Shown: in pieces, positions 12,149-39,512 of the stretch | Layout of the letters: each line of letters starts with the position of its first letter | Numbering within the stretch: the first letter of the stretch is position 1 | Assembly (NCBI GenBank): GCA_035546035.1 | Contig: DASZXC010000003.1 | Coordinates: 479 to 64,478, forward strand | Direction of reading: 5' to 3' | DNA length: 64,000 nt | DNA from: Minisyncoccota bacterium | GTDB taxonomy: Bacteria > Patescibacteriota > Minisyncoccia > Phycocordibacterales > UBA6065 | The notes under the pieces: generated by a model | The model's input: only the letters and a program-made list of their open reading frames with translations | Database searches by the model: none | Told to the model about the DNA's origin: nothing | Program-made: the position numbers and the translations under genes

Positions 12149-13993
12149 ATGATGGAAATGACCAGCGACGACAAAGTCACATACTTCGCCGAGACCGATG
12201 CCCGGAACAAGCGCGTCAAATTCGGGATCAAGGCAAAAGACCGCACCCGCCACGTCTATATCATCGGCAAGACGGGCATGGGCAAATCCACTCTCCTCGA
12301 GAATATGGCGGTGCAAGACATTCAGGGCGGGGAAGGCTGCTGCTTCATAGACCCTCACGGCAAGACCGCCGAGCTTCTCCTCAATTACGTTCCCGAAAAT
12401 CGCCTCAAGGACGTGCTCTATTTCGCGCCGTTCGACGTCGAGCACCCGATCGCGTTCAACGTCATGGAGGACGTCGGCTACGACAAGCGCCATCTCGTCG
12501 TATCCGGCCTCATGTCCACATTCAAAAAAATATGGGCCGATGCGTGGAGCGCCCGCATGGAATATATCCTCTCGAACACGCTTCTCGCGCTCCTCGAATA
12601 TCCAGGAGCGACGCTCTTGGGAGTGAACAAGATGCTCTCTGACAAGGACTATCGCAAAAAGGTCGTCGACAACATCAAAGATCCGGCGGTGAAGTCGTTC
12701 TGGGTGGACGAGTTCGCCAAATATACCGACAGGTTCGCCGCCGAAGCGACTCCGGCCATTCAGAACAAGATCGGCCAGTTCACGAATAACCCTCTCATCA
12801 GGAATATCATCGGCCAGCCGAAATCGTCGTTCGACCTTCGCAAGATGATGGACGACAGGAAGATTCTCATCGTGAACCTCTCGAAAGGCCGCGTGGGCGA
12901 ATCGAACGCCAATCTCCTCGGCGCTATGCTCATCACCAAGATATATCTCGCCGCGATGTCGCGCGCCGACGTCTCTGACAAGATAATGAAGACCCTGCCG
13001 AACTTCTACCTCTATGTGGACGAATTCCAGTCCTTCGCGAACGAGTCTTTCGCCGATATCCTCTCCGAGGCGCGAAAATACAAGCTGAACCTGACCATGG
13101 CGCATCAGTACATCGAGCAGATGTCCGAAGAAGTGCGCGCGGCGGTGTTCGGCAACGTCGGTACCATGATCGTGTTCCGGGTGGGCTCGTACGACGCAGA
13201 GGTCTTGGAGAAGGAATTCGCCCCGCAATTCACGGCTGAAGACATCGTGAACCTCGGCTTCGCGCAGATATATCTGCGGCTTATGATCGACGGGATAGGT
13301 TCGCAGCCGTTTTCGGCGACCACGCTGCCGCCGATACCCGAACCCGCCGTCACGTTCAAGGAGCAAGTCGTCCAGGGCTCGCGCGCCCAATTCACCCAAG
13401 TTCGTCCGGTCGTCGAAGAGCTCGTCCGCATGCAGACCTTGGGCGCGACGCCCGACAGGCCTCTCGCGACCATGAAGGCAGAGCCGCGCGACAGGACCAG
13501 CACGGCGGAAAGGGCTGACAGGCCGATGCCGCCGGCGCCTTCACCTATGCCGCCGCGCGAGCCGCGCAGGGAAGAGAGGCGTGACGATCGCCGCGAAGAT
13601 CGCAGAGACGACAGGCGCCTGCCGCAGGAGAATAATCGTCGCCACGAGACGCCGCCGATGGACGCGAGCGACGGATTTCATGGTTTCGACGCTATCAAGG
13701 CCATGGTCACGCCGCGTCCGCTTCAGAATAGCCAGAGCCAAGATCAGAAGCGCCCGAACGATCAGAGACCCGAAAAAAAGGGCGTGACCGAAGAGTCGCG
13801 AAACGACCTGCGTCAGGCACTCGCTTCTATAGCGAAGCCTCCGGCTGCTCCCAAAGAAGCGCCGAAGCAGGAGGCGAAGAAGGAAGCGGCTCCTCCGGCG
13901 CCTCCTGTCGCGCCGCGACCGCCTGAACTCAAGCATTCCGGACCGGCGAACGAGGTTCCGGAAGACGTCCTTAACAAACTCCTTGATATGTAA
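12149..13993 (+). CDS. P-loop ATPase of the VirD4/TraD/TraG type IV coupling-protein-like (DUF87/AAA-like) family, with an Arg/Asp/Glu/Pro-rich disordered C-terminal tail
   Basis: 614 aa: Walker A IIGKTGMGKST, Walker B YLYVDEFQSF, TraG-D_C-like LNLTMAHQYIEQ. No N-terminal TM segment. C-terminal ~170 aa are low-complexity (REPRREERRDDRREDRRDDRR...PPAPPVAPRPP). Confidence 0.55.
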   Translation: MMEMTSDDKVTYFAETDARNKRVKFGIKAKDRTRHVYIIGKTGMGKSTLLENMAVQDIQGGEGCCFIDPHGKTAELLLNYVPENRLKDVLYFAPFDVEHPIAFNVMEDVGYDKRHLVVSGLMSTFKKIWADAWSARMEYILSNTLLALLEYPGATLLGVNKMLSDKDYRKKVVDNIKDPAVKSFWVDEFAKYTDRFAAEATPAIQNKIGQFTNNPLIRNIIGQPKSSFDLRKMMDDRKILIVNLSKGRVGESNANLLGAMLITKIYLAAMSRADVSDKIMKTLPNFYLYVDEFQSFANESFADILSEARKYKLNLTMAHQYIEQMSEEVRAAVFGNVGTMIVFRVGSYDAEVLEKEFAPQFTAEDIVNLGFAQIYLRLMIDGIGSQPFSATTLPPIPEPAVTFKEQVVQGSRAQFTQVRPVVEELVRMQTLGATPDRPLATMKAEPRDRTSTAERADRPMPPAPSPMPPREPRREERRDDRREDRRDDRRLPQENNRRHETPPMDASDGFHGFDAIKAMVTPRPLQNSQSQDQKRPNDQRPEKKGVTEESRNDLRQALASIAKPPAAPKEAPKQEAKKEAAPPAPPVAPRPPELKHSGPANEVPEDVLNKLLDM

Positions 13994-17470: not shown

Positions 17471-17914
17471 ATGGATACCGCTCTGAATGTCATCCTCTTT
17501 CCGTACCGGCGGGCGATGCGCATATTCCGCCGATCGCAGTTTATCCGCTATATCTTTTCGGGCGGCACGGCCTCGGTTCTCGACGTCGCCCTCGTGTATG
17601 TCCTCGTGACGTATCTCAACGTCTATTATCTGGCCGCGGCGACGTTCGCTATGACGGTTTCATTCATCGCGCGATTCCTCCTCCAGAAATTCGTGGCTTT
17701 CCAGAACGATAACAAAGAAGAGGAGAAGAAGCAGTTCTTCGCGTACAGCATCCTCTATTTCGCGAGCCTTTGGGCGACGAATGCCATGCTCTACGTATTC
17801 GTCGAGAAGCTCCATATGGATGTCACGGTCTCGCAGGTTCTCGCCATACTCATATTCGCCGTCATCAGTTATTTCACCTATAAGTTGCTTATATTCAGGA
17901 AGAAGATCTCATGA
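17471..17914 (+). CDS. GtrA-family membrane protein (polyprenyl-phosphate-sugar flippase-associated)
   Basis: 147 aa, 4 TM; FIRYIFSGGTASVLDVALVYVL...FVAFQN matches the GtrA family. Confidence 0.7.
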   Translation: MDTALNVILFPYRRAMRIFRRSQFIRYIFSGGTASVLDVALVYVLVTYLNVYYLAAATFAMTVSFIARFLLQKFVAFQNDNKEEEKKQFFAYSILYFASLWATNAMLYVFVEKLHMDVTVSQVLAILIFAVISYFTYKLLIFRKKIS

Positions 17915-22295: not shown

Positions 22296-22358
22296 CCGTG
22301 CCTTTAAATCGCCTTTAAATATAGCATTAAATCTGCTATATTTCCCTTATATTTCAAC

Positions 22359-22979
22359 ATGAAATCCTACTCCATCATTCGCGACGGAGAGTACCGTAAC
22401 CTGCGCGGCATCTCTCTCGACGGGGCGATCCTCGACCTCGGCGGCAATATCGGGTCCGAATATCACAGCCTCATCGGAGGCTCGCACGCGTTTACGACCG
22501 TGAACATAGATCGGTCGCATCCGTGCGACATGATATTCGACATTCAGGAGAAATTCCCGCTCGAGACCGGTTCGTTCGATGCGGTCATTTCTATGAACGT
22601 ATTCGAGCATATCTATGGATTCCATAACGCATTTTCGGAGTCGGCGCGCGTGCTGAAGGCGGGCGGCACGTTCGTATTCGCCGTGCCGTTCATGCACCAC
22701 ATCCACGGCTGTCCTGACGATTACATGCGATACACCAAGTCCACGCTCGAAAAGCTCCTTCTCGAAAACGGATTCAAGCGTATGGACATACGCGAGATCG
22801 GCTACGGCATATGTTCGCTGGTCTACCAATCCGCGTCGGGAGCGTTGCCGCGGATCATAAAACCGGCCTTCAAGGCGGTCGCCGTCGGCATAGACAAGGC
22901 CTTGCTCAAGATCATTCCTCGCTATCGCGCCATGGCGGAAAGGATACCGCTCGGCTATTTCGTGGTGGCCCATAAATAA
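22359..22979 (+). CDS. Class I SAM-dependent methyltransferase
   Basis: 206 aa; ILDLGGNIGSE ... FDAVISMNVFEHI ... LKAGGTFVFAVP. Confidence 0.7.
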   Translation: MKSYSIIRDGEYRNLRGISLDGAILDLGGNIGSEYHSLIGGSHAFTTVNIDRSHPCDMIFDIQEKFPLETGSFDAVISMNVFEHIYGFHNAFSESARVLKAGGTFVFAVPFMHHIHGCPDDYMRYTKSTLEKLLLENGFKRMDIREIGYGICSLVYQSASGALPRIIKPAFKAVAVGIDKALLKIIPRYRAMAERIPLGYFVVAHK

Positions 22980-22980
22980 C

Positions 22981-24123
22981 ATGAAGCGCCGACTTTTTCT
23001 CGTATTCCATGGCAGGTTCCCGGGCGAGAAAGCAGCCTCTCTTTTCGCGGCGAAAAGCGCCGAGGCTTTTGCGGATGTCGGTCTCGAGGTGACGGTTCTT
23101 GTTCCAAAAAGGAAGGGTGTCGATAGCCAGACTGCATATGACTATTTCGGCGTGAGGAATGTTTTTTCGATCGTCGAGATACCTGCCACCGAATTGTCGC
23201 CGGTCTTCCGGAAGATATCGTTCTGGATGAGCTACCGCTCGTTCTCAAAGGGTATTGTTGCCTATATAAAAGCTCATGCAGTCTCTGACGACATCGTCTA
23301 TTCGAACGAAACCTTGCCTCTGCTCGCCGCGTCGCGCGTCGCGGGAAATACTTTCTATGAAATGCACGATTTTCCGGAGAGCAAGCTCGCGCTCTTCGGC
23401 CGATTTTTGAAAAAGATGAAATGGGTGCTCGTCCATAACAAATGGAAGATGGAAAAGGTCGAGAGGGCATTCGGCATCTCTGCCGAGCGCATGCTCTATG
23501 AGCCGAATGCGGTAGATATAGGAGCTTTCGATATCTCCGTGTCTAAAGAAGAAGCTCGAAAGAAGCTTGGTTTGCCTCCGGATAAAAAGATCGCCGTGTA
23601 TACAGGGCATCTCTATGGCTGGAAGGGCGTGGATGCGCTCGCGCAGGCAGCAGGCATGCTCGCCGATGATTTTCTTGCCGTATTCGTGGGCGGTACCGAT
23701 GCCGACGTCGCAGCGTTCAAATCGAAATACGGCGACTCGCCGCGGATTCTGATCGCAGGCCACAAAAAGTACGCTGAAATCCCTGTCTGGCAAAAGGCCG
23801 CTGACGTTCTGGCGCTTCCTAATTCGGGTAAAGAAGCGATATCTCTCTACTACACGTCGCCGATGAAGCTGTTCGAATACATGGCGAGCCGGAGGCCGAT
23901 CGTCGCATCCGACATCCCATCCATCCGCGAGATCGTGGACGGATCGTCGGCGTCTCTGGTCCCGCCTGATGATGCAAAAGCCCTCGCGGATGCGATCCGG
24001 ACGCTCGCTTCTGATTCTCAAGGGGGAGAGGCTCTCGCCCAGAGCGCTTTCGCGCGGGTTTCCAGTCATACATGGGAGAAGCGCGCCCGTCGCATCCTTT
24101 CTTTCATAGAAAAAAATGGTTAA
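22981..24123 (+). CDS. Glycosyltransferase family 4
   Basis: 380 aa; GT4 C-terminal domain (KLFEYMASRRPIVASDIPSIREIV). Confidence 0.75.
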   Translation: MKRRLFLVFHGRFPGEKAASLFAAKSAEAFADVGLEVTVLVPKRKGVDSQTAYDYFGVRNVFSIVEIPATELSPVFRKISFWMSYRSFSKGIVAYIKAHAVSDDIVYSNETLPLLAASRVAGNTFYEMHDFPESKLALFGRFLKKMKWVLVHNKWKMEKVERAFGISAERMLYEPNAVDIGAFDISVSKEEARKKLGLPPDKKIAVYTGHLYGWKGVDALAQAAGMLADDFLAVFVGGTDADVAAFKSKYGDSPRILIAGHKKYAEIPVWQKAADVLALPNSGKEAISLYYTSPMKLFEYMASRRPIVASDIPSIREIVDGSSASLVPPDDAKALADAIRTLASDSQGGEALAQSAFARVSSHTWEKRARRILSFIEKNG

Positions 24124-25519
24124 GGATTTTGTTGCGCGCTATAAAGTCGAGGTCATCATATTCTGCATCGCCCTCGCCGCGAGGCTCGTACTTTTTTCCA
24201 TCGTTTTTGCCCACAATGACGGCAATCTCCTGAATTCGATCCACGGCGACGACGGATATTATGAATTGTCGCAGGGAATCCTGAATGGCCACGGCATGAC
24301 GTGGGATACGCAGCCGCCGTTCGCACCGAATCCTTTGCGCCCGCCGGTCTGGCCGTATCTCATTGCGTTTTTTGCGGGCGTGTTCAAAACATACTGGGCC
24401 GTATTCGCTTTCGAGCTTGTCCTCGGAAGCCTTATCCCAGTCCTCGCATACAGGGTCGCACGTATGCTCTTCGGGCATCGCATAGGGAAGTGGACAGCGA
24501 TCATCATGTGCGTCGAGCCGTACCTCATGTTGTTTTCGATCATCCTCTATACCGAGACGTGCTTCATGTTCTTTTTCCTCCTTTTTCTGATATTCCTCAT
24601 CAGATATATAGAACGGCCGACGATCCGGTCGGCGCTCTACGCGGGTCTGACGCTCGGCCTCGCCACGATGGTGAAGCCGACGGTTCAATATCTGCCGATA
24701 TTGATACCGATCGCGCTCGCGATCATGTGGCGCGAACGTTTGCGCGGTCCACAACAAGGCGGCGAAGGTACGGCTTTAGCGAAGCAATGCGCGATATTCC
24801 TTCTGATGTTCTTGGTCGTCATCGCTCCGTGGCTCGTGCGAAATCACCAAGCGTTCGGCGTCTGGGGCATGAGCGCCCAACCGGAATTCAATCTGTACGT
24901 GTATCTCGCGCCGACGCTGCTCGCCATAGACAACGGCACCGACTTCAAAACGGAATACGCCGCATTTGTTGAAAGAGGCGGCTTCGATCCGAATTCCATA
25001 ACGCTCGCCAATGCGGATATCTATAAATCGAAGGGGCTCGATGTTATCAGAGACCACAAGCTCGCGCTCATGAAATCAGGGCTCATAACGCTCGTCACGT
25101 TCTTTACCCATGACGGCATGCTCACGGTGCTCGGATATTCAGGCATTACGATACCGAACGTCGTTTCGAAGCCGGTCATACAATTAGCTTCTCATCCGAT
25201 CGAGCTTGCATCGGTCATGGCGCGCTATGCGGCAAGCCCTGCTGTGCTCATCATCCTCTTGCGCTTGTTCTGGATCGCCGTGACGATATCGTTCGTATAC
25301 GGCGCATGCAGATATCTCCGCAGGGGAGACAAAGCCGCTGCCGCGATCATGATTCTCATAGTCCTCTATTTCGCCGGTACGACGGCGATCAACGGATTCG
25401 GCGTGAATGCGCGATTCAGGATGCCGGTGGACGCTATCATCCTCGGATTCGCTCTATTTGGACTTTTTTCCATAAAAAGGGATAATACGCGCACTGAAAT
25501 CCCTGCAGCTGCTCGATGA
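24116..25519 (+). CDS. Polytopic GT-C-type glycosyltransferase (ArnT/PMT_2/GT39-83-like)
   Basis: 467 aa, ~11 predicted TM helices; N-terminal loop with DDGYY; overall architecture of polyprenyl-phosphate-sugar-dependent GT-C enzymes. Confidence 0.55.
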   Translation: MVKDFVARYKVEVIIFCIALAARLVLFSIVFAHNDGNLLNSIHGDDGYYELSQGILNGHGMTWDTQPPFAPNPLRPPVWPYLIAFFAGVFKTYWAVFAFELVLGSLIPVLAYRVARMLFGHRIGKWTAIIMCVEPYLMLFSIILYTETCFMFFFLLFLIFLIRYIERPTIRSALYAGLTLGLATMVKPTVQYLPILIPIALAIMWRERLRGPQQGGEGTALAKQCAIFLLMFLVVIAPWLVRNHQAFGVWGMSAQPEFNLYVYLAPTLLAIDNGTDFKTEYAAFVERGGFDPNSITLANADIYKSKGLDVIRDHKLALMKSGLITLVTFFTHDGMLTVLGYSGITIPNVVSKPVIQLASHPIELASVMARYAASPAVLIILLRLFWIAVTISFVYGACRYLRRGDKAAAAIMILIVLYFAGTTAINGFGVNARFRMPVDAIILGFALFGLFSIKRDNTRTEIPAAAR

Positions 25520-25526
25520 TCCTGCG

Positions 25527-27092
25527 ATGAAGCTTTCTATCGTAATCCCCGCATATAACGAGGAAAAGACCCTGGAGGAGATCCTTTCCCGGGTCTTTGC
25601 CGTCTCTATTCCCGGATGGACGACCGAGATCGTTGTCGTTGACGACGCTTCGACCGACGGGACGCCGGATATACTCAAAAAGCACGGAAAGAAGCTAAAA
25701 TCGGTCAGACTCGATAAGAATTCAGGCAAGGGCACGGCCGTCCTCCGCGGCCTCTCTGAAGCGACAGGCGACTATATCGTCATACAGGACGCCGACCTTG
25801 AATATCACCCGAAAGATATCCTGTCGCTTGTCGTTGCATTAGATGTAGGTGGCGCGGCCGGCAAGCAGGCCGTATATGGATCGCGTAACCTGTATCATGA
25901 GAAGCGCGAGGGATTCATATTCCAGCGCCTTGGCGTTTGGAGCATCACTAAAATGATCAATGTGCTCTATGACGCGGACCTCACTGACGTCTGGACGTGC
26001 TACAAGCTTTTTCCGGCAGACGCCAAAAAATATTTCGTGCCGGGCCGATTCGAATCCGAGCTCATATTTACCGCCGCGCTCCTCCGTAACGGCTACGATA
26101 TCCGCGAAGTCCCGATATCCCATGCTCCCCGCACGGCTGCGGAAGGCAAAAAGATCCGCTATCGCGACGGATTCCGCGCCATACAGCTTCTCTTCGCCGA
26201 CAGGCTCGGCAATATCCGGAAACCGCAGATCCGCGTGACGGGGGACCACTCCCACATCATCTGCTGTCCGTTCTGCAAGGCGGATCTCCTTAAAACCGAA
26301 AACGGCCTCGTCTGCAAAACCCACGGGCATTTCGTTGTGGATGAATCGCGCCGACCGATCCTTATCGAGAAAGGCGTATATGAGCATAACAGCGACCAGC
26401 ACGAATCGGGCGTGAACTGGCTCAAATCGTTCTTCAAGCAATTCCCGAAGGTCTATTATTCGATCTGGCACATGTTCTGCCCGGTCATGATGCTCGTGAA
26501 TGGCCCGCGCATGGTGCTCGACAGGGTAGAAGAGGGCTCAACGGTCATAGACGTAGGCTCCGGTCCCGAGCGCCTCGGCAAGGAATTCATAAACGTGGAT
26601 ATATTCCCGTTCCCCGAAGTTGACATCGTGTCTGATGCGACGCAATTGCCGTTCAAAAACGATACGATCGATGCCGCCGTGTCCGAATCGCTGTTCGAGC
26701 ACGTGCCGGATGCGCATAAGGTCGCGCGCGAAATGGTCCGCGTCGTGAAGCCTGGGGGCTATGTATACGTTTCCGCTCCGTTCATGCATCCGTACCATGC
26801 GTCGCCCGACGATTTCAATCGCTGGACGATATCGGGCCTGAAGCATATGTTCTCTGACCTCGATATCGTCGAATCGGGCGTGAGGTCGGGGCCGTGGTCA
26901 ACGTTCCTCATGTTCCTCGCGTACTGGCTCGGCGTCATATTCTCGTTCGGCTCGCGCAAAGCCGCGCCGTTCATGGCGCACGTATTCATGCTCGTACTCG
27001 GCCCGCTCAAATATCTCGATTACATATTCATATATATTCCAGGGTCTGATGCGGTAGCGACGCATCTGTATATATTGGGAAGGAAGAAATAA
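25527..27092 (+). CDS. Fusion protein: GT2 (Dol-P-Man/Glc synthase-like) domain + Trm112-like Zn-ribbon + class I SAM methyltransferase domain + C-terminal TM segments
   Basis: 521 aa. N-terminus KLSIVIPAYNEEKTLEEIL...VVDDASTDGT...IQDADLEYHP (GT2/DPM-like), then CCPFCKADLLKTENGLVCKTHGHF (Zn-ribbon), then VIDVGSGPERLG...LFEHVPDAHK...VKPGGYVYVSAPF (MTase), then hydrophobic C-terminus. Confidence 0.7.
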   Translation: MKLSIVIPAYNEEKTLEEILSRVFAVSIPGWTTEIVVVDDASTDGTPDILKKHGKKLKSVRLDKNSGKGTAVLRGLSEATGDYIVIQDADLEYHPKDILSLVVALDVGGAAGKQAVYGSRNLYHEKREGFIFQRLGVWSITKMINVLYDADLTDVWTCYKLFPADAKKYFVPGRFESELIFTAALLRNGYDIREVPISHAPRTAAEGKKIRYRDGFRAIQLLFADRLGNIRKPQIRVTGDHSHIICCPFCKADLLKTENGLVCKTHGHFVVDESRRPILIEKGVYEHNSDQHESGVNWLKSFFKQFPKVYYSIWHMFCPVMMLVNGPRMVLDRVEEGSTVIDVGSGPERLGKEFINVDIFPFPEVDIVSDATQLPFKNDTIDAAVSESLFEHVPDAHKVAREMVRVVKPGGYVYVSAPFMHPYHASPDDFNRWTISGLKHMFSDLDIVESGVRSGPWSTFLMFLAYWLGVIFSFGSRKAAPFMAHVFMLVLGPLKYLDYIFIYIPGSDAVATHLYILGRKK

Positions 27093-27118
27093 AAAAACCG
27101 CCGCGCGGCGGTTTTTTG
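27090..27118. terminator. Bidirectional intrinsic terminator (AAAAAAAccgccgcgcggcggTTTTTT)
   Basis: GC-rich palindrome flanked by an A-run and a T-run, between convergent genes. Confidence 0.8.
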
Positions 27119-27123
27119 CATGT

Positions 27124-27912
27124 TTATCTGAATTTTATCGCTGCGGCGTCTTTTGGTGTCGTCCACTCGCCCGATTCAGGGACGAATTTGACCGGAGCGG
27201 CCTTGCAGACGAATACGCATCTAAAATTGAATATATATTTTTCAACGACATCGAATCCGGCGCAGTTGAGGAGGGATTCAAGGCATGAGGGCGTCATGCC
27301 CCAGAACCAATTGGCATAGCCTTCCTGAGGCTCGTAAGGGCCTGTAATAGCCCTCTGCATGCCGATACCGCGCTGCCATACCTTTCGCTGGTTTTCGTTG
27401 AGGAATGGGTAGAATACGGCCGCATTGCTGAGACCCTTCATCTCAGGGATGGAGGCAGTGTTCAGGATAAACGTCTCTTTGGTGATCGCGCGGAGCCTCA
27501 TGAGCATATGGGACGGATCAGGAGTGTGATAGAGCACGCCTGCGCAGAGGACGACGTCGCATGCACCGATCTTTTTTATCGTCTCGGCGGAATTGATGTC
27601 GCCTTGGATGAATTCGACCTTCGAGCCGCGCTTTTTCTTCGCTTCTATGAATTCCTTGCTTTCAGGGTAAACGTCGACGGCGACTGACCGGATCGCGCCT
27701 GCTTCTTCTGCTGCGAACGTATTCGCTCCGTGGACGCCCCAGAGCGCGCCGATGTCTGCGAACGACTTGCCGGAGGCGTATTTTCTGACGAGAGACGCAT
27801 TGTCGAATGCGTCGTTGGTCATGTCTTTGCCGAGGACGATCTTGGACGATTTTCGGATGACTCTTTTCAGGAATCGGTTATTAAGGGCCAGGACGCGGAG
27901 TTTGTAGAGCAT
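27124..27912 (-). CDS. Class I SAM-dependent methyltransferase-like protein
   Basis: 262 aa; FADIGALWGVHGANTFAAEEAG ... CDVVLCAGVLYHTPDP (MTase motifs I and post-II). Confidence 0.5.
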   Translation of the reverse strand: MLYKLRVLALNNRFLKRVIRKSSKIVLGKDMTNDAFDNASLVRKYASGKSFADIGALWGVHGANTFAAEEAGAIRSVAVDVYPESKEFIEAKKKRGSKVEFIQGDINSAETIKKIGACDVVLCAGVLYHTPDPSHMLMRLRAITKETFILNTASIPEMKGLSNAAVFYPFLNENQRKVWQRGIGMQRAITGPYEPQEGYANWFWGMTPSCLESLLNCAGFDVVEKYIFNFRCVFVCKAAPVKFVPESGEWTTPKDAAAIKFR

Positions 27913-29643: not shown

Positions 29644-30645
29644 TTATAGTACGACTTCCGCGAAGTTTTCGCGAGGGAAGCCCCAGTCTTCAGGGTTGGT
29701 CTTGTAAGGGATTTTCGTCTCGAGCATCTTTTTGGTGTCTTCTTGGAATTTCGTGAATGAAGCGAGGTACCTGACGCCTTTGTGGTGATGGTAGATGTGA
29801 TATACGGAGTGGGGCAGGATTTTCTGTTTTAATCCGAAACAATAGAGCACGTAGAGGATATAGCCGTCGAGCGTGCCGCTGCCCACGGTCATCTGGTCGT
29901 ATCCGCGGACTTTCTCTACGGCGCCCCTATGCATCATGAGGAAGTCTCCGGCAGCGTTCGTGTGCATGATCGATTCATCAGATTCTTTGTCCCTAAAAGG
30001 GTTGAGGAACGGGCATTGGAGGAGTATCTTCCTTGTCCTGCCGTGGATAAGGGCAGAGAGCCATTCTTTGAATGAAAGATATACGGTCCTGTCGTTGTAC
30101 ATGATCTTGATCGCGTCTTTCTCCGCGCGAGCGAGCACTTCTGCAGCCGAAAGCCGCGGGTCTATCCAGTTCATAGCCATATCCTTGCGATTGATGCGGT
30201 AGAAGGAATTCGCATCGAGTTCCTTTGCCGCGAAGAAGTCAAAGAGCTTGTCGCTGTAGAGCACGTCCGGATTCGTCGCCACGATCCATTCGCCTTTGGA
30301 GCGCCTCATGCCTATGTTCTTTCCGATGAATTCGCAGACGGTTACCTTTTCATTGTCGGGAAGCGTCTTGTGAAAGCTCGCCGGCACGGTGACGAAACGG
30401 ACTGCCAGATAGCGGTTATCCTCGATGACGAGCTCTTCATATATATGCTTCTTATGGGCCGGGGGATTGTATTCGACGAAGACGAGCTCGCACCAGAGCT
30501 TGGTGCGGTTGGTCTGGTATATAAGGACTTTTATGAACGCATTGATGCGGTTCGTCCAATTGCCGCCGTAATCGTCGTTGCGGGCGGTCACTACGAATGA
30601 GATGAACGGGCTCATTTGGTTTTTCCGTAAAGGATCCTCTGCCAT
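29644..30645 (-). CDS. Putative glycosyltransferase (GT-A-like), family unclear
   Basis: 333 aa; ISFVVTARNDDYGG ... WIVATNPD. Weak similarity to GT2-like transferases from memory only. Confidence 0.3.
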   Translation of the reverse strand: MAEDPLRKNQMSPFISFVVTARNDDYGGNWTNRINAFIKVLIYQTNRTKLWCELVFVEYNPPAHKKHIYEELVIEDNRYLAVRFVTVPASFHKTLPDNEKVTVCEFIGKNIGMRRSKGEWIVATNPDVLYSDKLFDFFAAKELDANSFYRINRKDMAMNWIDPRLSAAEVLARAEKDAIKIMYNDRTVYLSFKEWLSALIHGRTRKILLQCPFLNPFRDKESDESIMHTNAAGDFLMMHRGAVEKVRGYDQMTVGSGTLDGYILYVLYCFGLKQKILPHSVYHIYHHHKGVRYLASFTKFQEDTKKMLETKIPYKTNPEDWGFPRENFAEVVL

Positions 30646-31637: not shown

Positions 31638-32519
31638 TTATATGATCTTTTCTATCCTCTCCCTGATATCGGCTGCCGTGAGCTTCAGATATGCGTCTAT
31701 ATCGCCGACATTGCCGTATTTATGGATGAATTCGCGCGGTACGCCGATGTGGTGTACGCTCGGCGATTTCTTCGCCATCTCTGCCGATTTCGCTATGTCC
31801 CAATCGAGAGAGCCTTCATAGAAAGGCTCGCAGACGATCACCTTGTCTCCCGCGATATTCGTCGCCAGCGCATCTCGGTCGAAAGGCGCGACGGTCGTGT
31901 AATAGAGGATCGTCACGTCCAGTCCTTTGCAGGCTTCGCGCACGCTTTCGAGCATCGGCCCTACGGTCACGACCGTAGCTTTCAAGCCTTTTTGTACGAT
32001 CATGGCTTTGCCGAACTCTACGGGGAAGCTCTCTTTATTGCTTCGCTCGCTCAAGCGGAAGTATGTAGGCTTGCCGTCCGCATAGGTCGCCCTGAACAGC
32101 GAGTCGAATTCCGCAGGCGTTCCCGGTACGACGATCTCCATGTTCGGGACGTTCTTCAGTATGCCGACGTCGCCAGGGCAGTGATGGGTGCCTCCCATGA
32201 CCGCATAATCGTACGATCCGCCGATGCCTATGAAGTTGCCGCCGATATTCTGGTATCCGAAATCGTCTTTGATCTGTTCAAGCGAACGTTCGACTATGAA
32301 CGGGGCGATGGTGTGCACGACAGGGATCATGTCGTGGAGCGAGAGACCTGCGGCCAGGCTCACCGTCGATTGCTCGAGGATGCCGATATTGTAGACGCGG
32401 TCAGGATGCTCTTTGAAAGCGTTCCTGAACCCGAATACGCTTATGTCGCCCAAAAGCAGGACGAGGCGCGGGTCGGTCTTCAGTATATCTTCGACGGTCT
32501 TTACGAATTGTTTTCTCAT
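31638..32519 (-). CDS. Transketolase, C-terminal subunit (pyrimidine-binding + C-terminal domains)
   Basis: 293 aa; YNIGILEQSTVSLAAGLSL...HHCPGDVGIL...EIVVPGTP. Stop is adjacent to the N-terminal subunit gene. Confidence 0.85.
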   Translation of the reverse strand: MRKQFVKTVEDILKTDPRLVLLLGDISVFGFRNAFKEHPDRVYNIGILEQSTVSLAAGLSLHDMIPVVHTIAPFIVERSLEQIKDDFGYQNIGGNFIGIGGSYDYAVMGGTHHCPGDVGILKNVPNMEIVVPGTPAEFDSLFRATYADGKPTYFRLSERSNKESFPVEFGKAMIVQKGLKATVVTVGPMLESVREACKGLDVTILYYTTVAPFDRDALATNIAGDKVIVCEPFYEGSLDWDIAKSAEMAKKSPSVHHIGVPREFIHKYGNVGDIDAYLKLTAADIRERIEKII

Positions 32520-32521
32520 GG

Positions 32522-33280
32522 CTATATCAGTTCTTTAAGGAATGCTTCGAGCTCCTCGGGTTTCGGCGATTTGTGGTGCCATTCCGGATTGTGTTCCATG
32601 GACTTCACGCCCTTGCCTTTTATCGTGGCGGCGATGACGGCGATGGGCCTCTCGCTCTTTGCGGTCAACGCCTTATATATCGCCTCTTCATCGTGCCCGT
32701 CTATCGCTATGGTGTGCCAGCCGAATGATTTGAACTTCGCTTCTACGTCTCCGAGCACGAGCGAGCGGTCATTCGAGTGGTTGTAGTCGACGATGCAGCA
32801 GAGGTTGTCGAGCTTTTGGTGGGGCGCAAGGAGCGCGGATTCCCATACCGTACCCTCATTGCACTCGCCGTCGCCTATGATGGTATAGACCCGGCCCTTC
32901 TGCTTCCGTATCTTCATCGCCAGAGCGAGGCCGACTGCCATAGGGAAGCCATGGCCGAGCGAGCCCGTAGAGGTCTCTACTCCCGGAACTTTTGTCCGGT
33001 CCGGATGACCGCCGAGGATGCTGTCGAATCTTCCGAACGAATGGAGCGTCTCCTCGGTGATGAATCCTTTTTCCGCGAGGACGGCATAGAGGCCGATGGA
33101 AGCGTGGCCCTTCGAAAGCACGAATCGGTCGCGGTCAGGGTGCGATACGGTCTCGGGACTTATGTTAAGGACGCGGTCATAGAGGACCCAGAGTATCTCC
33201 AGGATCGAAAACGCCGTAGATATGTGGCCTTCTCCGGATTTGGTCGCTATTTCCAGTATCTTTCGTTTCAGATGCTTCAT
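32522..33280 (-). CDS. Transketolase, N-terminal subunit (TPP-binding)
   Basis: 252 aa; GHISTAFSILEIL, GSLGHGFPMAVGLALA, IIGDGECNEGTVWE, CIVDYN. Confidence 0.85.
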   Translation of the reverse strand: MKHLKRKILEIATKSGEGHISTAFSILEILWVLYDRVLNISPETVSHPDRDRFVLSKGHASIGLYAVLAEKGFITEETLHSFGRFDSILGGHPDRTKVPGVETSTGSLGHGFPMAVGLALAMKIRKQKGRVYTIIGDGECNEGTVWESALLAPHQKLDNLCCIVDYNHSNDRSLVLGDVEAKFKSFGWHTIAIDGHDEEAIYKALTAKSERPIAVIAATIKGKGVKSMEHNPEWHHKSPKPEELEAFLKELI

Positions 33281-38870: not shown

Positions 38871-39512
38871 CTATCGTTTTGGGTAGATACGGATGTTGTC
38901 GTTCTTGACCTCGAATCCGTAGCCGGCCGCCGTCGCCATCTTTTCCACTCTTTCGAGGGTCGGATAGTTATTCTTGCCGACGAATTCGCGGGCGTCGTCT
39001 ATGAGGATCACGTGGTTCTTGACCGGATGGGCGAATATGACCTTGAGCTCTTCTTCGACGGGCGTATCGACGTCGGTGCGCGTCGTCTCGCCGCCGGAGA
39101 AATGCGCGTCGAGCCAGAAGAGCGCGGGCTCTTGTATCTCCGCGAGCATCTTGGGAAGCATGACTCCGCTATCGCCGTGGAAAAGCTTCACGTGCCTTTC
39201 GTTCGCGTATTTTTTGACGGCGTCGGCATAGAGCGCATCGGAGAGCTCGACGGAATATATCGCGTCGAAGCGGCGGATCATGGTGTCGATCATCTCGCCC
39301 TTGTACGTGCCGGTCTCGACGAATACGCGCGGCTTGAACTTGGAATAGTAGCCGATGATCGAGTTCACGCGCTCTGCGTGGAGCTTTGCGTGCTTTCGGC
39401 GCTCTCGGACTTTGATGTAGATCCCATAGAGGCCGAATACCTTCAATACTCCTTTCGCCACGCGGCGGGCCGGGGTAGAAGGGATATGTGGTTTGCTGTA
39501 GACGATGCTCAT
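38871..39512 (-). CDS. Class I SAM-dependent O-methyltransferase (TylF/MycF/CmcI-like)
   Basis: 213 aa; VFVETGTYKGE ... LFWLDAHFSGG ... ILIDDA. Confidence 0.5.
   Translation of the reverse strand: MSIVYSKPHIPSTPARRVAKGVLKVFGLYGIYIKVRERRKHAKLHAERVNSIIGYYSKFKPRVFVETGTYKGEMIDTMIRRFDAIYSVELSDALYADAVKKYANERHVKLFHGDSGVMLPKMLAEIQEPALFWLDAHFSGGETTRTDVDTPVEEELKVIFAHPVKNHVILIDDAREFVGKNNYPTLERVEKMATAAGYGFEVKNDNIRIYPKR

What the first reader, a model, noticed from the sequence alone, without database searches (positions are those of the whole stretch)
25527..27092. Single polypeptide fusing a Dol-P-sugar-synthase-like GT2, a Trm112-like zinc ribbon, a class I SAM methyltransferase and a membrane anchor
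The N-terminal ~230 aa carry the GT2 signatures (IVIPAYNEE..., VVDDASTDGT, IQDADLE), followed by CCPFCKADL..VCKTHGHF (a zinc ribbon of the type that activates or partners methyltransferases), a complete MTase fold (VIDVGSGPERLG ... VKPGGYVYV) and C-terminal TM helices. It sits immediately downstream of a GT-C (ArnT/PMT-like) enzyme. Fusing a polyprenyl-P-sugar synthase to a methyltransferase would couple sugar activation to methylation, possibly making a methylated polyprenyl-P-sugar donor. I am not aware of this being a described architecture.
Basis: seen in the sequence. Interest (0 to 1): 0.65.

Follow-up and report, generated by a model that had tools for sequence, protein, structure and literature searches.

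The report
Lipid-sugar synthase fused to a methyltransferase
One real, conserved gene of a Patescibacteria-type bacterium joins an enzyme that probably loads a sugar onto a membrane lipid carrier to a methyltransferase. Comparison with relatives suggests the two work with the neighbouring membrane glycosyltransferase to put a methylated sugar on the cell surface, which nobody has yet tested.

Summary
The 521-aa ORF at 25527..27092 (+) is real. More than 110 database clusters from Patescibacteria match it over its full length at 56-85% identity, so it is not a frameshift artefact.

- **GT2 domain (aa 1-230):** a TM-less polyprenyl-phosphate glycosyltransferase of the DPMS/GtrB/ArnC type. DxD, R120 and R202 are invariant, and ArnC, DPMS and GtrB are the top structural matches.
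- **Methyltransferase module (aa 244-521):** a single compact domain (AF2 pTM 0.90). It consists of a Trm112-like ribbon, cap helices and a class I SAM methyltransferase.
- **"C-terminal membrane anchor":** this is a hydrophobic two-helix hairpin inserted between the last two strands of the methyltransferase fold. It is only marginally TM-like and carries invariant D498.
- **Zinc site:** dispensable. 31 of 116 family members have lost all four ligands.

Both halves also exist as separate proteins. In close relatives, the orthologous 226-aa GT2 and a 300-aa methyltransferase (about 74% identical) are separate genes next to PMT_2 GT-C genes. GT-C-methyltransferase and GT2-GT-C fusions also occur, and domain order differs between lineages.

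My best reading (about 0.45) is a GtrA/GT2/GT-C glycosylation system with a built-in methyltransferase acting on the polyprenyl-P-sugar before it is flipped. The chemistry is inferred, not shown. I rate it a new variant of a known kind, of moderate interest.

The parts
25527..27092 (+). Whole fusion gene, 521 aa plus stop codon
   Evidence: ORF. 115 full-length homologues at 56-85% identity. AF2 model with pLDDT 88.3 and pTM 0.70.
25527..26216 (+). GT2 / GT-A domain (aa 1-230), polyprenyl-phosphate glycosyltransferase type, with two helices (131-148, 212-228) where DPMS/GtrB/ArnC have juxtamembrane helices
   Evidence: Pfam PF00535. Best PDB sequence matches are PfDPMS, ArnC and GtrB. Foldseek top 22 are ArnC, DPMS and GtrB. 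D88, D90, R120, K160, R202, K208 are invariant in 116 fusion sequences and 80 sequences (79 related GT2 ORFs plus the window domain).
26256..26366 (+). Trm112-like zinc ribbon (aa 244-280); ligands C247, C250, C263, H266
   Evidence: Pfam Trm112p at 18.4-19.3 bits, below the cut-off of 22. 31 of 63 stand-alone homologues match Trm112p. Three short strands in the model. Ligand counts.
26367..26528 (+). Helical cap in front of the methyltransferase core (aa 281-334). This is the most conserved stretch of the fusion family (H-x-SG-x-NWLKSF-x-KQFP-x-x-YY-x-IWH-x-x-CP)
   Evidence: Alignments A1 and A2. Helices 282-293, 297-304, 307-317 and 327-333. Helix 297-304 is strongly amphipathic (muH 0.75).
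26529..26891 (+). Class I SAM methyltransferase Rossmann core (aa 335-455): motif I G344-S-G346, acidic D358, E391-H392, R405, H424, P427, D429, R432
   Evidence: Pfam Methyltransf_11/23/25/31. These residues are invariant or nearly so across 63 distant homologues.
26892..27041 (+). Hydrophobic two-helix hairpin (aa 456-505) inserted between the sixth and seventh strands of the methyltransferase; holds K495 and invariant D498
   Evidence: AF2 secondary structure, hydropathy, conservation.
27042..27089 (+). Last strand of the methyltransferase sheet (aa 513-520, 'THLYILGRK') and the C-terminus
   Evidence: AF2 models. The neighbouring 206-aa paralogue ends in the same way.
24116..25519 (+). GT-C fold glycosyltransferase (PMT_2), 467 aa, about 8-12 hydrophobic segments; partner gene
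   Evidence: Pfam PF13231 at 53.9 bits. Hydropathy. An orthologue lies directly upstream of the fusion in L001-L004.
22981..24123 (+). GT4 glycosyltransferase; overlaps the start of the GT-C gene by 8 nt
   Evidence: Pfam Glycos_transf_1. The same neighbour is present in L003, L004 and L094.
22359..22979 (+). Small 206-aa methyltransferase, first gene of the operon. It is a paralogue of the fusion's methyltransferase core, without ribbon or hydrophobic hairpin
   Evidence: BLASTP 35% identity over 104 aa, E 2e-16. Pfam.
17471..17914 (+). GtrA-type small membrane protein (candidate flippase for the lipid-linked sugar)
   Evidence: Pfam PF04138 at 64.2 bits. GtrA genes also lie near the fusion or its split form in L001, L002, L004, L090 and L093.
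22314..22342 (+). Promoter-like site upstream of the four-gene unit 22359..27092
   Evidence: Consensus scan, 9 of 12 matches with a TG extension. Weak evidence: the region has fewer such sites than its shuffles.
27092..27117 (.). Bidirectional intrinsic-terminator-like hairpin (AAAAAACCGCCGCGCGGCGGTTTTTT) between the fusion and the convergent gene 27124..27912
   Evidence: Terminator scan: 11-bp stem with T-runs on both strands.

Best explanation
The gene encodes a bifunctional enzyme that works at the cytoplasmic face of the membrane, as part of a GtrA / GT2 / GT-C ('three-component') extracytoplasmic glycosylation system.

1. **Sugar loading (well supported).** The N-terminal GT-A domain transfers a sugar from a nucleotide sugar onto polyprenyl phosphate, as DPMS, GtrB and ArnC do. 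It has no transmembrane helices of its own.
2. **Methylation (inferred).** The C-terminal module is an active SAM methyltransferase stabilised by an intramolecular Trm112-like ribbon. Its amphipathic cap helices and hydrophobic hairpin form a lipid-facing pocket over the active site. It methylates the sugar headgroup of the polyprenyl-P-sugar that the first domain has just made.
3. **Flipping and transfer (inferred from context).** A GtrA-type protein flips the methylated lipid-linked sugar. The GT-C encoded 7 nt upstream then transfers it to an acceptor outside the cytoplasm. The likely acceptor is the polysaccharide made by the surrounding Wzm/Wzt cluster, or a surface protein.

The logic is that SAM exists only in the cytoplasm. 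A methyl group on a sugar delivered by a GT-C must therefore be added before flipping.
For: **GT2 domain is a polyprenyl-P glycosyltransferase**
- The best sequence matches among solved structures are PfDPMS (E 7e-25), ArnC and GtrB. Foldseek ranks 1-22 are ArnC, DPMS and GtrB.
- R120 aligns with PfDPMS R117 and R202 with ArnC R205. The ArnC and GtrB papers name these as the conserved acceptor-phosphate and donor-phosphate arginines (10.1101/2025.01.29.634835; PMC12698845).
- Both arginines and the DxD motif are invariant in 116 fusion sequences and 80 sequences (79 related GT2 ORFs plus the window domain).
- The same GT2 subfamily is fused directly to a PMT_2 GT-C in L007 and L029.
- In 51 of 84 loci a large polytopic membrane protein lies within 2.5 kb of it.

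**The methyltransferase is probably active**
- Motif I, D358, E391-H392, R405, H424, D429, R432 and D498 are invariant or nearly so across 63 homologues that share about 30% identity.
- The AF2 model of the module alone has pTM 0.90.

**The three activities are coupled**
- The GT-C is directly upstream in four loci whose fusion proteins are 58-61% identical to this one.
- Split form: the orthologous 226-aa GT2 (52-53% identity), a roughly 300-aa methyltransferase (about 74% identical) and PMT_2 genes are adjacent or overlapping in L090 and L091.
- A GT-C-methyltransferase fusion is followed by the orthologous GT2 in L094.
- An ORF with the order methyltransferase-GT2 occurs in L093.
- Other class I methyltransferases are fused or adjacent to the same GT2 subfamily in Acidobacteriota, Levyibacteriota, Anaerolineae and Nanoarchaeia.
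- A GtrA gene lies in the same cluster.

**The pocket looks lipid-facing**
- Hairpin hydropathy and the amphipathic helix 297-304.
Against: - No result identifies the methyl acceptor, the sugar or the lipid.
- The relative orientation of the two domains is uncertain. The full-length model has pTM 0.70 against 0.90 for the module alone, and I had no coordinates or PAE. I could not check whether the two active sites face each other.
- The closest solved methyltransferases are generic (RlmA(I), AtmM/RebM, Hvo_0019), with TM-scores of 0.4-0.5 and at most 18% identity.
- Gene clustering and fusion show shared pathway membership. They do not show that the GT2 product is the methyltransferase substrate.
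- The cluster holds at least seven other methyltransferases, so methylation of the main polymer is going on anyway.
- The metal-binding Gln of the DADLQ motif is Glu here (DADLEY).
- The canonical C-terminal TM helices of GtrB, ArnC and DPMS are absent.
Confidence: 0.45

Rival explanations
1. Same pathway, different substrate. The GT2 domain makes the polyprenyl-P-sugar, but the methyltransferase acts on something else in the same glycan pathway. That could be the nucleotide-sugar donor before transfer, or the lipid-linked polymer or oligosaccharide built by the GT4/GT2 enzymes of the cluster, for example as a chain-end cap read by Wzt. On this view the fusion only reflects co-regulation and co-localisation at the membrane.
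For: - The cluster is an ABC-transporter type polysaccharide locus whose Wzt has a weak Wzt_C domain, and it holds many methyltransferases.
- The closest solved structures include sugar O-methyltransferases that act on soluble glycosides (AtmM, RebM).
- Double-methyltransferase fusions of the same module exist (P0126, P0127, P0160), as expected for enzymes that decorate one glycan several times.
Against: - The module stays with the GT-C and the short GT2 in every lineage I examined, and all three pairwise fusions occur. A cytoplasmic methyltransferase fused to a GT-C shares only lipid-linked molecules with it.
- No kinase domain was found by Pfam, unlike WbdD-type terminators; coiled coils were not examined.
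- The hydrophobic cap argues against a purely soluble nucleotide-sugar substrate.
Confidence: 0.3
2. The GT2 domain is an ordinary glycan-extending GT-A enzyme that adds a sugar to a lipid-linked oligosaccharide, or to another acceptor. It is not a polyprenyl-phosphate glycosyltransferase. The fusion would then be a sugar-adding and sugar-methylating bifunctional enzyme, like the multi-domain methyl-rhamnosyltransferase WsaE (recalled from my own knowledge).
For: - The canonical C-terminal TM helices are missing.
- The soluble enzyme GpgS scores nearly as well in Foldseek (TMt about 0.6).
- The NCBIfam score for AglJ (82.9 bits) is far below its cut-off of 325.
- About 40% of loci with this GT2 subfamily show no large membrane protein nearby.
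Against: - The residues that define polyprenyl-P glycosyltransferases (R120 = PfDPMS R117, R202 = ArnC R205, and the E-x-P-x-x-H-x-x-R-x-x-x-G-K-K motif) are invariant.
- ArnC, DPMS and GtrB outrank all other GT-A structures.
- Direct GT2-GT-C fusions exist.
- NCBIfam includes short (213-226 position) models for polyprenyl/dolichyl-phosphate glycosyltransferases that this domain matches: PpgS model of 226 positions and the halophile Dol-P hexose transferase model of 213.
Confidence: 0.15
3. The methyltransferase module is mainly a structural substitute for the missing transmembrane and oligomerisation domain of GtrB-type enzymes. It tethers the GT2 domain to the membrane or to the GT-C and has little or no catalytic role.
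For: - It occupies the position where GtrB, ArnC and DPMS have their TM helices, and it carries the only strongly hydrophobic segments of the protein.
- Zinc ligands decay within the fusion family.
Against: - The SAM-binding motifs and a set of polar residues (H424, D429, R432, D498) are invariant across very distant homologues. That is not expected for a scaffold.
- The module is widespread as a free-standing protein (14,801 hits at E<=1e-3 and 256 at 1e-30).
Confidence: 0.05

Closest known systems
Polyprenyl-phosphate glycosyltransferases of family GT2: PfDPMS (5MLZ), GtrB (5EKP, 9NYC), ArnC (9BHC, 8VXH)
   Same: - GT-A fold, DxD motif, the acceptor-phosphate arginine (R120) and the donor-phosphate arginine (R202).
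- Helices at the positions of the two juxtamembrane helices.
- Genomic pairing with a GtrA-type protein and a GT-C enzyme.
   Different: - No C-terminal transmembrane helices. The polypeptide continues into a ribbon plus methyltransferase instead.
- The motif reads DADLEY instead of DADLQ.
- Only 21-27% identity to the solved enzymes.
- Activity has not been tested.
TM-less polyprenyl-P glycosyltransferases that feed GT-C enzymes, e.g. mycobacterial PpgS with Rv3779 (NCBIfam NF058614; the pairing is recalled from my own knowledge) and the halophile Dol-P hexose transferase (NF041391)
   Same: A short catalytic unit of about 220-240 aa without membrane spans that works with a separate GT-C. The stand-alone relatives of the window's GT2 domain have exactly this size.
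   Different: - Weak matches only (E 2e-8 and 7e-12, far below the family cut-offs).
- No methyltransferase partner is described for those enzymes.
Haloferax volcanii Agl pathway: AglJ (Dol-P glycosyltransferase), AglP (SAM methyltransferase), AglB (GT-C fold oligosaccharyltransferase) (PMC3871713)
   Same: A polyprenyl-monophosphate-linked sugar, SAM-dependent methylation of a sugar while the glycan is being assembled on the lipid, and then transfer by a GT-C fold enzyme. AglJ is the best NCBIfam match of the GT2 domain.
   Different: - The Agl proteins are separate, and AglP acts on a hexuronic acid of a lipid-linked tetrasaccharide.
- I did not test homology of the window's methyltransferase to AglP.
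- The GT-C here is PMT_2 type, not AglB/STT3 type.
Trm112-methyltransferase holoenzymes and Trm112-methyltransferase fusions (PMC5372719); RlmA(I) with its N-terminal zinc domain (1P91)
   Same: A small zinc-knuckle ribbon next to a class I methyltransferase. RlmA(I) is the top Foldseek match of the module and the Hvo_0019-Trm112 complex is in the top 6. The review notes that such fusions exist in bacteria and archaea with unknown function.
   Different: - Those enzymes modify RNA or translation factors.
- Here the module carries a hydrophobic hairpin and sits in glycan clusters next to GT-C genes.
- The zinc ligands are dispensable in part of the family.
WbdD-type chain-terminating methyltransferase-kinase of ABC-transporter O-antigen pathways (mentioned in PMC11127046)
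   Same: A methyltransferase in a Wzm/Wzt polysaccharide cluster. The methyl group may be read by the Wzt C-terminal domain.
   Different: No kinase domain. The module is fused or linked to a polyprenyl-P glycosyltransferase and a GT-C rather than to the polymerising enzymes.

Membership tests
Polyprenyl-phosphate glycosyltransferase (GT2; DPMS/GtrB/ArnC type) | GT-A fold with a DxD metal and nucleotide-sugar site | tested here: met
   PF00535 E 4.5e-31. D88-A-D90 invariant. Foldseek matches to ArnC, DPMS and GtrB at E 1e-15 to 1e-12.
Polyprenyl-phosphate glycosyltransferase (GT2; DPMS/GtrB/ArnC type) | Arginine that binds the acceptor lipid phosphate (PfDPMS R117 = GtrB R122 = ArnC R128), described as universally conserved in this class | tested here: met
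   'GSR' R120 aligns with PfDPMS chain residue 139, which is R117 after the 22-residue tag. Invariant in 116 + 80 sequences. The residue's role is taken from PMC12698845 and 10.1101/2025.01.29.634835.
Polyprenyl-phosphate glycosyltransferase (GT2; DPMS/GtrB/ArnC type) | Arginine of the E-x-P-x-x-x-x-x-R-x-x-G-E-S-K motif that coordinates the donor phosphate (PfDPMS R202 = ArnC R205 = GtrB R197) | tested here: met
   'EVPISHAPRTAAEGKK' aligns with ArnC 'EIPVHHAEREFGESK'. R202, G207, K208 and K209 are invariant.
Polyprenyl-phosphate glycosyltransferase (GT2; DPMS/GtrB/ArnC type) | Gln after the DxD (DADLQ) that helps bind the metal | tested here: not met
   The motif is DADLEY. E92 is invariant in the whole subfamily. 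Glu could still be a metal ligand, but that is inference.
Polyprenyl-phosphate glycosyltransferase (GT2; DPMS/GtrB/ArnC type) | Two amphipathic juxtamembrane helices between which the lipid enters | tested here: inconclusive
   The model has helices 131-148 and 212-228 at the expected places, but their amphipathicity is modest (muH 0.31 and 0.28). I had no coordinates to superpose.
Polyprenyl-phosphate glycosyltransferase (GT2; DPMS/GtrB/ArnC type) | C-terminal transmembrane helices (2 in GtrB and ArnC, 4 in PfDPMS) | tested here: not met
   After aa 230 comes the ribbon and methyltransferase. Only one 19-residue window in the whole protein exceeds KD 1.6. Stand-alone relatives end at about aa 228.
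Polyprenyl-phosphate glycosyltransferase (GT2; DPMS/GtrB/ArnC type) | Transfer of a sugar from an NDP-sugar to polyprenyl phosphate | not testable with these tools
   This needs a biochemical assay.
Three-component extracytoplasmic glycosylation system (polyprenyl-P glycosyltransferase + GtrA-type flippase + GT-C) | All three genes present and linked | tested here: met
   - GT-C 24116..25519 lies 7 nt upstream.
- GtrA 17471..17914 is in the same cluster.
- The same set is present in L001, L002, L004 and L090.
Three-component extracytoplasmic glycosylation system (polyprenyl-P glycosyltransferase + GtrA-type flippase + GT-C) | A defined extracytoplasmic acceptor glycan or protein | not testable with these tools
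   I can only infer that the Wzm/Wzt-exported polymer of the cluster is a candidate.
Trm112-like zinc ribbon (Pfam PF03966) | Profile match above the curated cut-off | tested here: inconclusive
   Window protein scores 18.4-19.3 bits against a cut-off of 22. 31 of 63 stand-alone homologues match at E<=0.01, best 2e-11.
Trm112-like zinc ribbon (Pfam PF03966) | [C/D]PxC ... CxxC zinc site | tested here: met
   - C247-P-F-C250 ... C263-K-T-H266, with His as the fourth ligand.
- Stand-alone homologues: 55 of 62 have all four ligands.
- Fusion family: 68 of 116 have four and 31 of 116 have none.
Trm112-like zinc ribbon (Pfam PF03966) | Beta-strand addition to the methyltransferase sheet, as in Trm112-methyltransferase complexes | not testable with these tools
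I know only that ribbon and methyltransferase fold as one confident unit (pTM 0.90).
Class I SAM-dependent methyltransferase | Profile match, glycine-rich motif I and the acidic residue after strand 2 | tested here: met
   Methyltransf_11 at 47.7 bits against a cut-off of 21.2. G344 and G346 are found in 62 and 61 of 63 sequences, and D358 in 61 of 63.
Class I SAM-dependent methyltransferase | Seven-stranded sheet whose last strand returns after strand 6 | tested here: met
   Strands 340-343, 354-358, 381-387, 407-418, 445-454 and 513-520 in both models; a short extra strand (module residues 136-138) is resolved only in the module model.
WbdD-type chain terminator | Kinase domain and coiled-coil ruler next to the methyltransferase | tested here: not met
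   No kinase family among the Pfam or NCBIfam hits. The whole polypeptide is accounted for by the GT2, ribbon and methyltransferase parts.

The most novel reading that the evidence does not exclude
The ribbon-methyltransferase-hairpin module would define an undescribed family of membrane-surface methyltransferases whose substrates are polyprenyl-phosphate monosaccharides. Together with a TM-less GT2 and a PMT_2-type GT-C, they would form a physical assembly line. In different lineages this line is seen as GT2-methyltransferase, GT-C-methyltransferase or GT2-GT-C fusions. It would explain how bacteria and DPANN archaea can place methylated sugars on surface polymers outside the cytoplasm, where no SAM is available.
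Probability: 0.4. Interest if true: 0.7.

Novelty: new variant of a known kind. Interest (0 to 1): 0.5.

Why it matters
**What would be new.** Three-component (GtrA/GtrB/GT-C) systems are the known route for decorating O-antigens, teichoic acids, arabinogalactan and lipid A from outside the cytoplasm. In every described case I know of, the lipid-linked donor carries an unmodified sugar or one finished at the nucleotide-sugar stage. A methyltransferase built into the donor-making enzyme would add a modification step at the lipid-linked monosaccharide stage.

**What it would assign.** It would give a function to a large, unannotated methyltransferase family with 14,801 representative hits. It would also give one to the fusions between Trm112-like domains and methyltransferases, which a 2017 review lists as being of unknown function.

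**Why the organism matters.** Patescibacteria are uncultured episymbionts whose surface glycans probably mediate host attachment. This cluster is one of the few handles on what those glycans look like.

**How far the claim goes.** It can be tested directly with one recombinant protein. It remains an inference from comparative genomics and is not a new kind of system.

Tried and rejected
- **Frameshift or assembly artefact: rejected.** 115 full-length homologues from independent sources. Both orders of fusion and split forms occur in syntenic clusters.
- **Separate C-terminal TM anchor: rejected.** The AF2 topology, marginal hydropathy, and conserved Glu at position 466 (33 of 63 homologues in the mainly stand-alone alignment A3) and invariant D498 inside the helices all argue against it.
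- **Obligatory zinc ribbon: rejected.** See the ligand counts.
- **The search for related loci with the diverse module alignments A3 and A4: failed.** No conserved stretch was available.
It cannot be used to say how many species carry the fusion.
- **My only metagenome DNA-pattern scan was wasted.** The three loci it returned (L087-L089) are irrelevant.
- **The GT-C has no sequence relative among solved structures,** even at E<=1.
- **Five literature searches found no paper on this fusion or on a polyprenyl-P-sugar methyltransferase**. The nearest hint is an uncharacterised '2-TM methyltransferase' (AMIS_70470) in a GtrA-type cluster of Actinoplanes (PMC13390465). I could not test whether it is homologous.
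- **I could not obtain model coordinates or PAE.**


Full report

Pfam finds Glycos_transf_2 at aa 4-120 (E 4.5e-31). It also finds Methyltransf_11, 23, 25 and 31 across aa 335-434, and a sub-threshold Trm112p match at aa 243-268 (18.4 bits, cut-off 22).

The gene 7 nt upstream (24116..25519) is a PMT_2 GT-C (53.9 bits).

The fusion is not a sequencing artefact. A search of 5.8 billion proteins returned 120 listed clusters, of which 115 align over the full length at 56-85% identity. They come from NCBI, JGI, ENA and Logan assemblies. Those that carry an organism name are from Patescibacteria (Paceibacterota, Parcubacteria, Sungbacteria, Taylorbacteria) or simply 'bacterium'. Their names go no further than 'glycosyltransferase'.

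**2. Anatomy**

An AF2 model built on 116 sequences has pLDDT 88.3 and pTM 0.70. A second model of aa 232-521, built on 63 distant homologues, has pLDDT 92.7 and pTM 0.90.

The parts are:

| Residues | Part |
|---|---|
| 1-230 | GT-A domain |
| 231-243 | variable linker |
| 244-280 | three-stranded ribbon |
| 281-334 | four helices (cap) |
| 335-455 | Rossmann methyltransferase core |
| 456-505 | two hydrophobic helices (456-472 and 480-501) |
| 513-520 | final strand, which returns into the methyltransferase sheet |

The 'C-terminal membrane anchor' is therefore an insertion between the last two strands of the methyltransferase. It is not a separate domain.

- Its hydropathy is marginal: KD 1.5 and 1.2, with a single 19-residue window above 1.6. 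The GT-C next door reaches 2.8.
- In homologues (mainly stand-alone) the first helix carries a conserved Glu (33 of 63), and the second carries invariant D498 and K495.
- I read it as a hydrophobic cap over the active site that may dip into the membrane surface. The membrane contact is inference.

**3. The GT2 domain**

- **Sequence matches.** Among solved structures the best sequence matches are P. furiosus DPMS (profile E 7e-25), ArnC and GtrB.
- **Structural matches.** Ranks 1-22 of the Foldseek PDB search are ArnC, DPMS and GtrB, ahead of the soluble enzyme GpgS.
- **Key residues.** The HMMER alignments place R120 ('GSR') on PfDPMS R117. They place R202 ('EVPISHAPRTAAEGKK') on ArnC R205 ('EIPVHHAEREFGESK'). 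The GtrB and ArnC structure papers describe these as the conserved acceptor-phosphate and donor-phosphate arginines of polyprenyl-phosphate glycosyltransferases (PMC12698845; 10.1101/2025.01.29.634835).
- **Conservation.** D88, D90, R120, D154, K160, R202, K208 and K209 are invariant in the 116 fusion proteins. All but K209 (79 of 80) are also invariant in 80 sequences: 79 ORFs of the same GT2 subfamily from other genomes plus the window domain.
- **Differences from the canonical enzymes.** The motif is DADLEY instead of DADLQ. The C-terminal transmembrane helices are absent.
- **Stand-alone relatives.** The domain belongs to a very widespread family of stand-alone, TM-less proteins of 225-240 aa, 40-50% identical, in many bacterial phyla and in DPANN archaea.
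- **Link to GT-C enzymes.** In 51 of 84 loci a protein of at least 330 aa with at least 7 hydrophobic segments lies within 2.5 kb, often with overlapping stop and start codons. In L007 (Paceibacterota) and L029 (Victivallales) the same GT2 is fused directly to a PMT_2 GT-C.

**4. The methyltransferase module**

- **Size of the family.** An exhaustive search with aa 232-521 found 14,801 representatives at E<=1e-3 and 256 at 1e-30. Most of the best 150 are free-standing proteins of 280-300 aa that cover ribbon, core and hairpin.
- **Conservation.** Across 63 of them, at about 30% identity, the following are invariant or nearly so: motif I (G344, G346), D358, E391-H392, R405, H424, P427, D429, R432, G437 and D498. 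I therefore expect an active enzyme.
- **The ribbon.** It is Trm112-like at family level: 31 of 63 homologues match PF03966, best E 2e-11.
- **The zinc site.** It is CPxC...CxxC in 55 of 62 free-standing members and CCCH in the window protein. All four ligands are absent in 31 of 116 fusion proteins. Zinc is therefore dispensable.
- **Nearest solved structures.** These are RlmA(I), which also has a zinc domain plus methyltransferase, the sugar O-methyltransferases AtmM and RebM, and the Hvo_0019-Trm112 complex. TM-scores are 0.4-0.5 and identity is at most 18%. No characterised close relative exists.
- **Known background.** A review of Trm112 notes that fusions of Trm112-like domains with methyltransferases occur in prokaryotes, with unknown function (PMC5372719).
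- **Local paralogue.** A 206-aa paralogue of the core, without ribbon or hydrophobic hairpin, opens the same operon (22359..22979; 35% identity).

**5. Comparative genomics: the main new result**

The GT2, the methyltransferase module and the GT-C form a trio that is kept together in several arrangements.

| Arrangement | Where seen |
|---|---|
| GT-C, then GT2-methyltransferase fusion, often with overlapping stop and start | window; L001-L004 (58-61% identical) |
| Split: free methyltransferase (about 74% identical to the module), overlapping or adjacent to PMT_2 genes, next to a 226-aa GT2 that is 52-53% identical to the fused domain | L090, L091 |
| GT-C-methyltransferase fusion (P0121, 764 aa, Sungbacteria), followed by the orthologous GT2 (56% identity), in a cluster that shares many gene types with the window | L094 |
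| One ORF with part of a GT-C, then methyltransferase, then GT2; the GT-C lacks its middle and may be decayed | L093 / P0088 |
| A more distant free-standing member right after a PMT_2 gene | L005 |
| Different class I methyltransferases fused to the same GT2 subfamily (L075, Acidobacteriota), or encoded immediately downstream of it (L016 Levyibacteriota, L018 Nanoarchaeia, L021 Anaerolineae) | L075, L016, L018, L021 |

All three pairwise fusions of the trio exist, and the domain order differs between lineages. That points to repeated selection for keeping the three activities together.

GtrA-type genes accompany the set in the window (17471..17914) and in L001, L002, L004, L090 and L093.

**6. 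Wider context**

Window 14.0-43.5 kb is one polysaccharide cluster. It contains:

- at least seven GT4 enzymes, plus GT2-, GT8- and GT11-like enzymes;
- at least seven further methyltransferases (MetW-like, two FkbM, DUF268, FtsJ-like and others);
- a split transketolase, an asparagine-synthase-like enzyme and epimerases;
- Wzm and Wzt, the latter with a weak Wzt_C domain.

The four genes 22359..27092 look like one transcription unit. A promoter-like site lies at 22314-22342 and a bidirectional terminator hairpin at 27092-27117.

Outside the cluster lie pyruvate kinase, a Mur ligase and a MraY/WecA-type transferase. These fit a peptidoglycan-bearing bacterium.

**7. How it most likely works**

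- **Shown.** The fold and catalytic-residue signature of a polyprenyl-P glycosyltransferase. An intact SAM methyltransferase signature. The tight genomic linkage and alternative fusions of GT2, methyltransferase and GT-C. A GtrA gene in the cluster.
- **Inferred.** The GT2 domain makes a polyprenyl-P-sugar. The methyltransferase methylates that sugar at the membrane surface. GtrA flips it. The GT-C transfers it to an extracytoplasmic acceptor.

The argument for the lipid-linked sugar as the methyl acceptor runs as follows. SAM is cytoplasmic. The GT-C active site is outside. The only molecules shared by a cytoplasmic methyltransferase and a GT-C are lipid-linked. The only product of the fused GT2 is the polyprenyl-P-sugar. 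I give this reading 0.45.

Rival readings:

| Rival | Confidence |
|---|---|
| The methyltransferase acts elsewhere in the same pathway (nucleotide sugar, or the polymer, for example as a cap) | 0.30 |
| The GT2 is a conventional glycan-extending enzyme | 0.15 |
| The module is mainly a scaffold | 0.05 |

**8. Comparison with what is known**

It works like a GtrB/ArnC/DPMS enzyme within a three-component system. It passes the catalytic-residue tests for that class but fails the TM-helix criterion and the DADLQ Gln. I therefore file the GT2 domain as a TM-less relative, comparable in size to the short (213-226 position) PpgS and halophile Dol-P hexose transferase models in NCBIfam.

The closest functional analogy for methylation during assembly on a polyprenyl monophosphate is the Haloferax Agl pathway (AglJ, AglP, AglB; PMC3871713). 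There the enzymes are separate and act on an oligosaccharide. I found no paper describing this fusion, or any polyprenyl-P-monosaccharide methyltransferase.

**9. Limits**

- I had no coordinates or PAE, so the relative placement of the two active sites is unknown.
- Two fold libraries were unavailable.
- My single metagenome pattern scan was mis-specified.
The taxonomic range of the fusion itself (so far only Patescibacteria) is therefore a lower bound.
- The sugar, the lipid, the position of methylation and the acceptor are all unknown.

**Verdict**

The membrane anchor and the zinc ribbon need reinterpretation. The proposed coupling of sugar activation and methylation is strengthened by fusion, fission and permutation evidence, but remains untested. 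I rate it a new variant of a known kind, with interest 0.5.

Noticed in passing
window 14057-43475: One polysaccharide cluster of about 30 kb. It holds at least seven GT4 genes, GT2-, GT8- and GT11-like genes, at least eight methyltransferase genes in all, GtrA, a GT-C, an asparagine-synthase-like gene, epimerases and Wzm/Wzt. This predicts a heavily methylated surface glycan exported by an ABC transporter.
   Followed up: partly
window 31638-33280 (-): A split transketolase (N-terminal TPP-binding part of 252 aa, then pyrimidine-binding and C-terminal part of 293 aa) sits inside the glycan cluster, next to an epimerase. The same pair next to a methyltransferase is reported in an Actinoplanes EPS cluster (PMC13390465). 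It may build a branched or two-carbon-extended sugar.
   Followed up: no
window 40458-41714 (-): The Wzt ABC ATPase has a weak Wzt_C carbohydrate-binding domain (E 4.5e-5, below the cut-off). In E. coli O9a this domain reads a methyl-phosphate chain cap. Here one of the many methyltransferases may make the export signal.
   Followed up: no
window 29644-30645 (-) and 38871-39512 (-): Two genes inside the cluster (333 aa and 213 aa) have no Pfam match at all.
   Followed up: no
window 27092-27117: A perfect 11-bp GC-rich hairpin flanked by A6 and T6 could terminate both convergent transcripts: the fusion operon and gene 27124..27912.
   Followed up: partly
L094:5001-7295 (protein P0121, Candidatus Sungbacteria): A natural fusion of the orthologous GT-C (aa 3-454) with the ribbon-methyltransferase module (aa 468-764), followed by a separate orthologous GT2 gene. 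This is a good target for modelling a GT-C/methyltransferase interface.
   Followed up: partly
L007:8705-10462 and L029:442-2598: The same short GT2 subfamily is fused in one polypeptide to a PMT_2 GT-C (585 aa in Paceibacterota and 718 aa in Victivallales). The donor-making and donor-using enzymes are thus on one chain, on opposite faces of the membrane.
   Followed up: partly
L075:2-1468 (Acidobacteriota); L016, L018 (Nanoarchaeia), L021: Independent pairings of the same GT2 subfamily with other class I methyltransferases that match only the core of the module model (the ribbon region is not matched). They are fused in L075 and are the next gene downstream in the other three. The GT2-methyltransferase link therefore reaches beyond Patescibacteria and into archaea.
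   Followed up: partly
L006:5980-7542 (P0126); also P0127, P0160, P0275, P0277: Double-methyltransferase proteins: an ordinary Methyltransf_11 domain fused in front of the ribbon-methyltransferase-hairpin module.
   Followed up: no
L001:5210-6112, L090:3300-4184, L003:5745-6575, L094:4134-4982: Short UDP-glucose/GDP-mannose dehydrogenase genes (about 300 aa) lie next to GtrA, and NTP-transferase genes lie right before the GT-C in relatives. This hints that the transferred sugar could be a hexuronic acid and the methyl group its ester, as made by AglP in Haloferax. No such gene was seen in the parts of the window I scanned.
   Followed up: no
L092:6001-6849 (Bacteroidales, P0337): A distant free-standing member of the methyltransferase family (32% identity) sits between an acetyltransferase and a DegT aminotransferase. 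A 314-aa GT2 and two large proteins without Pfam hits lie nearby. The layout resembles an Arn-like aminosugar pathway with an added methyltransferase.
   Followed up: no
window 12149-13993 (+): A TraG/TrwB-like type IV coupling protein gene lies just upstream of the glycan cluster.
   Followed up: no
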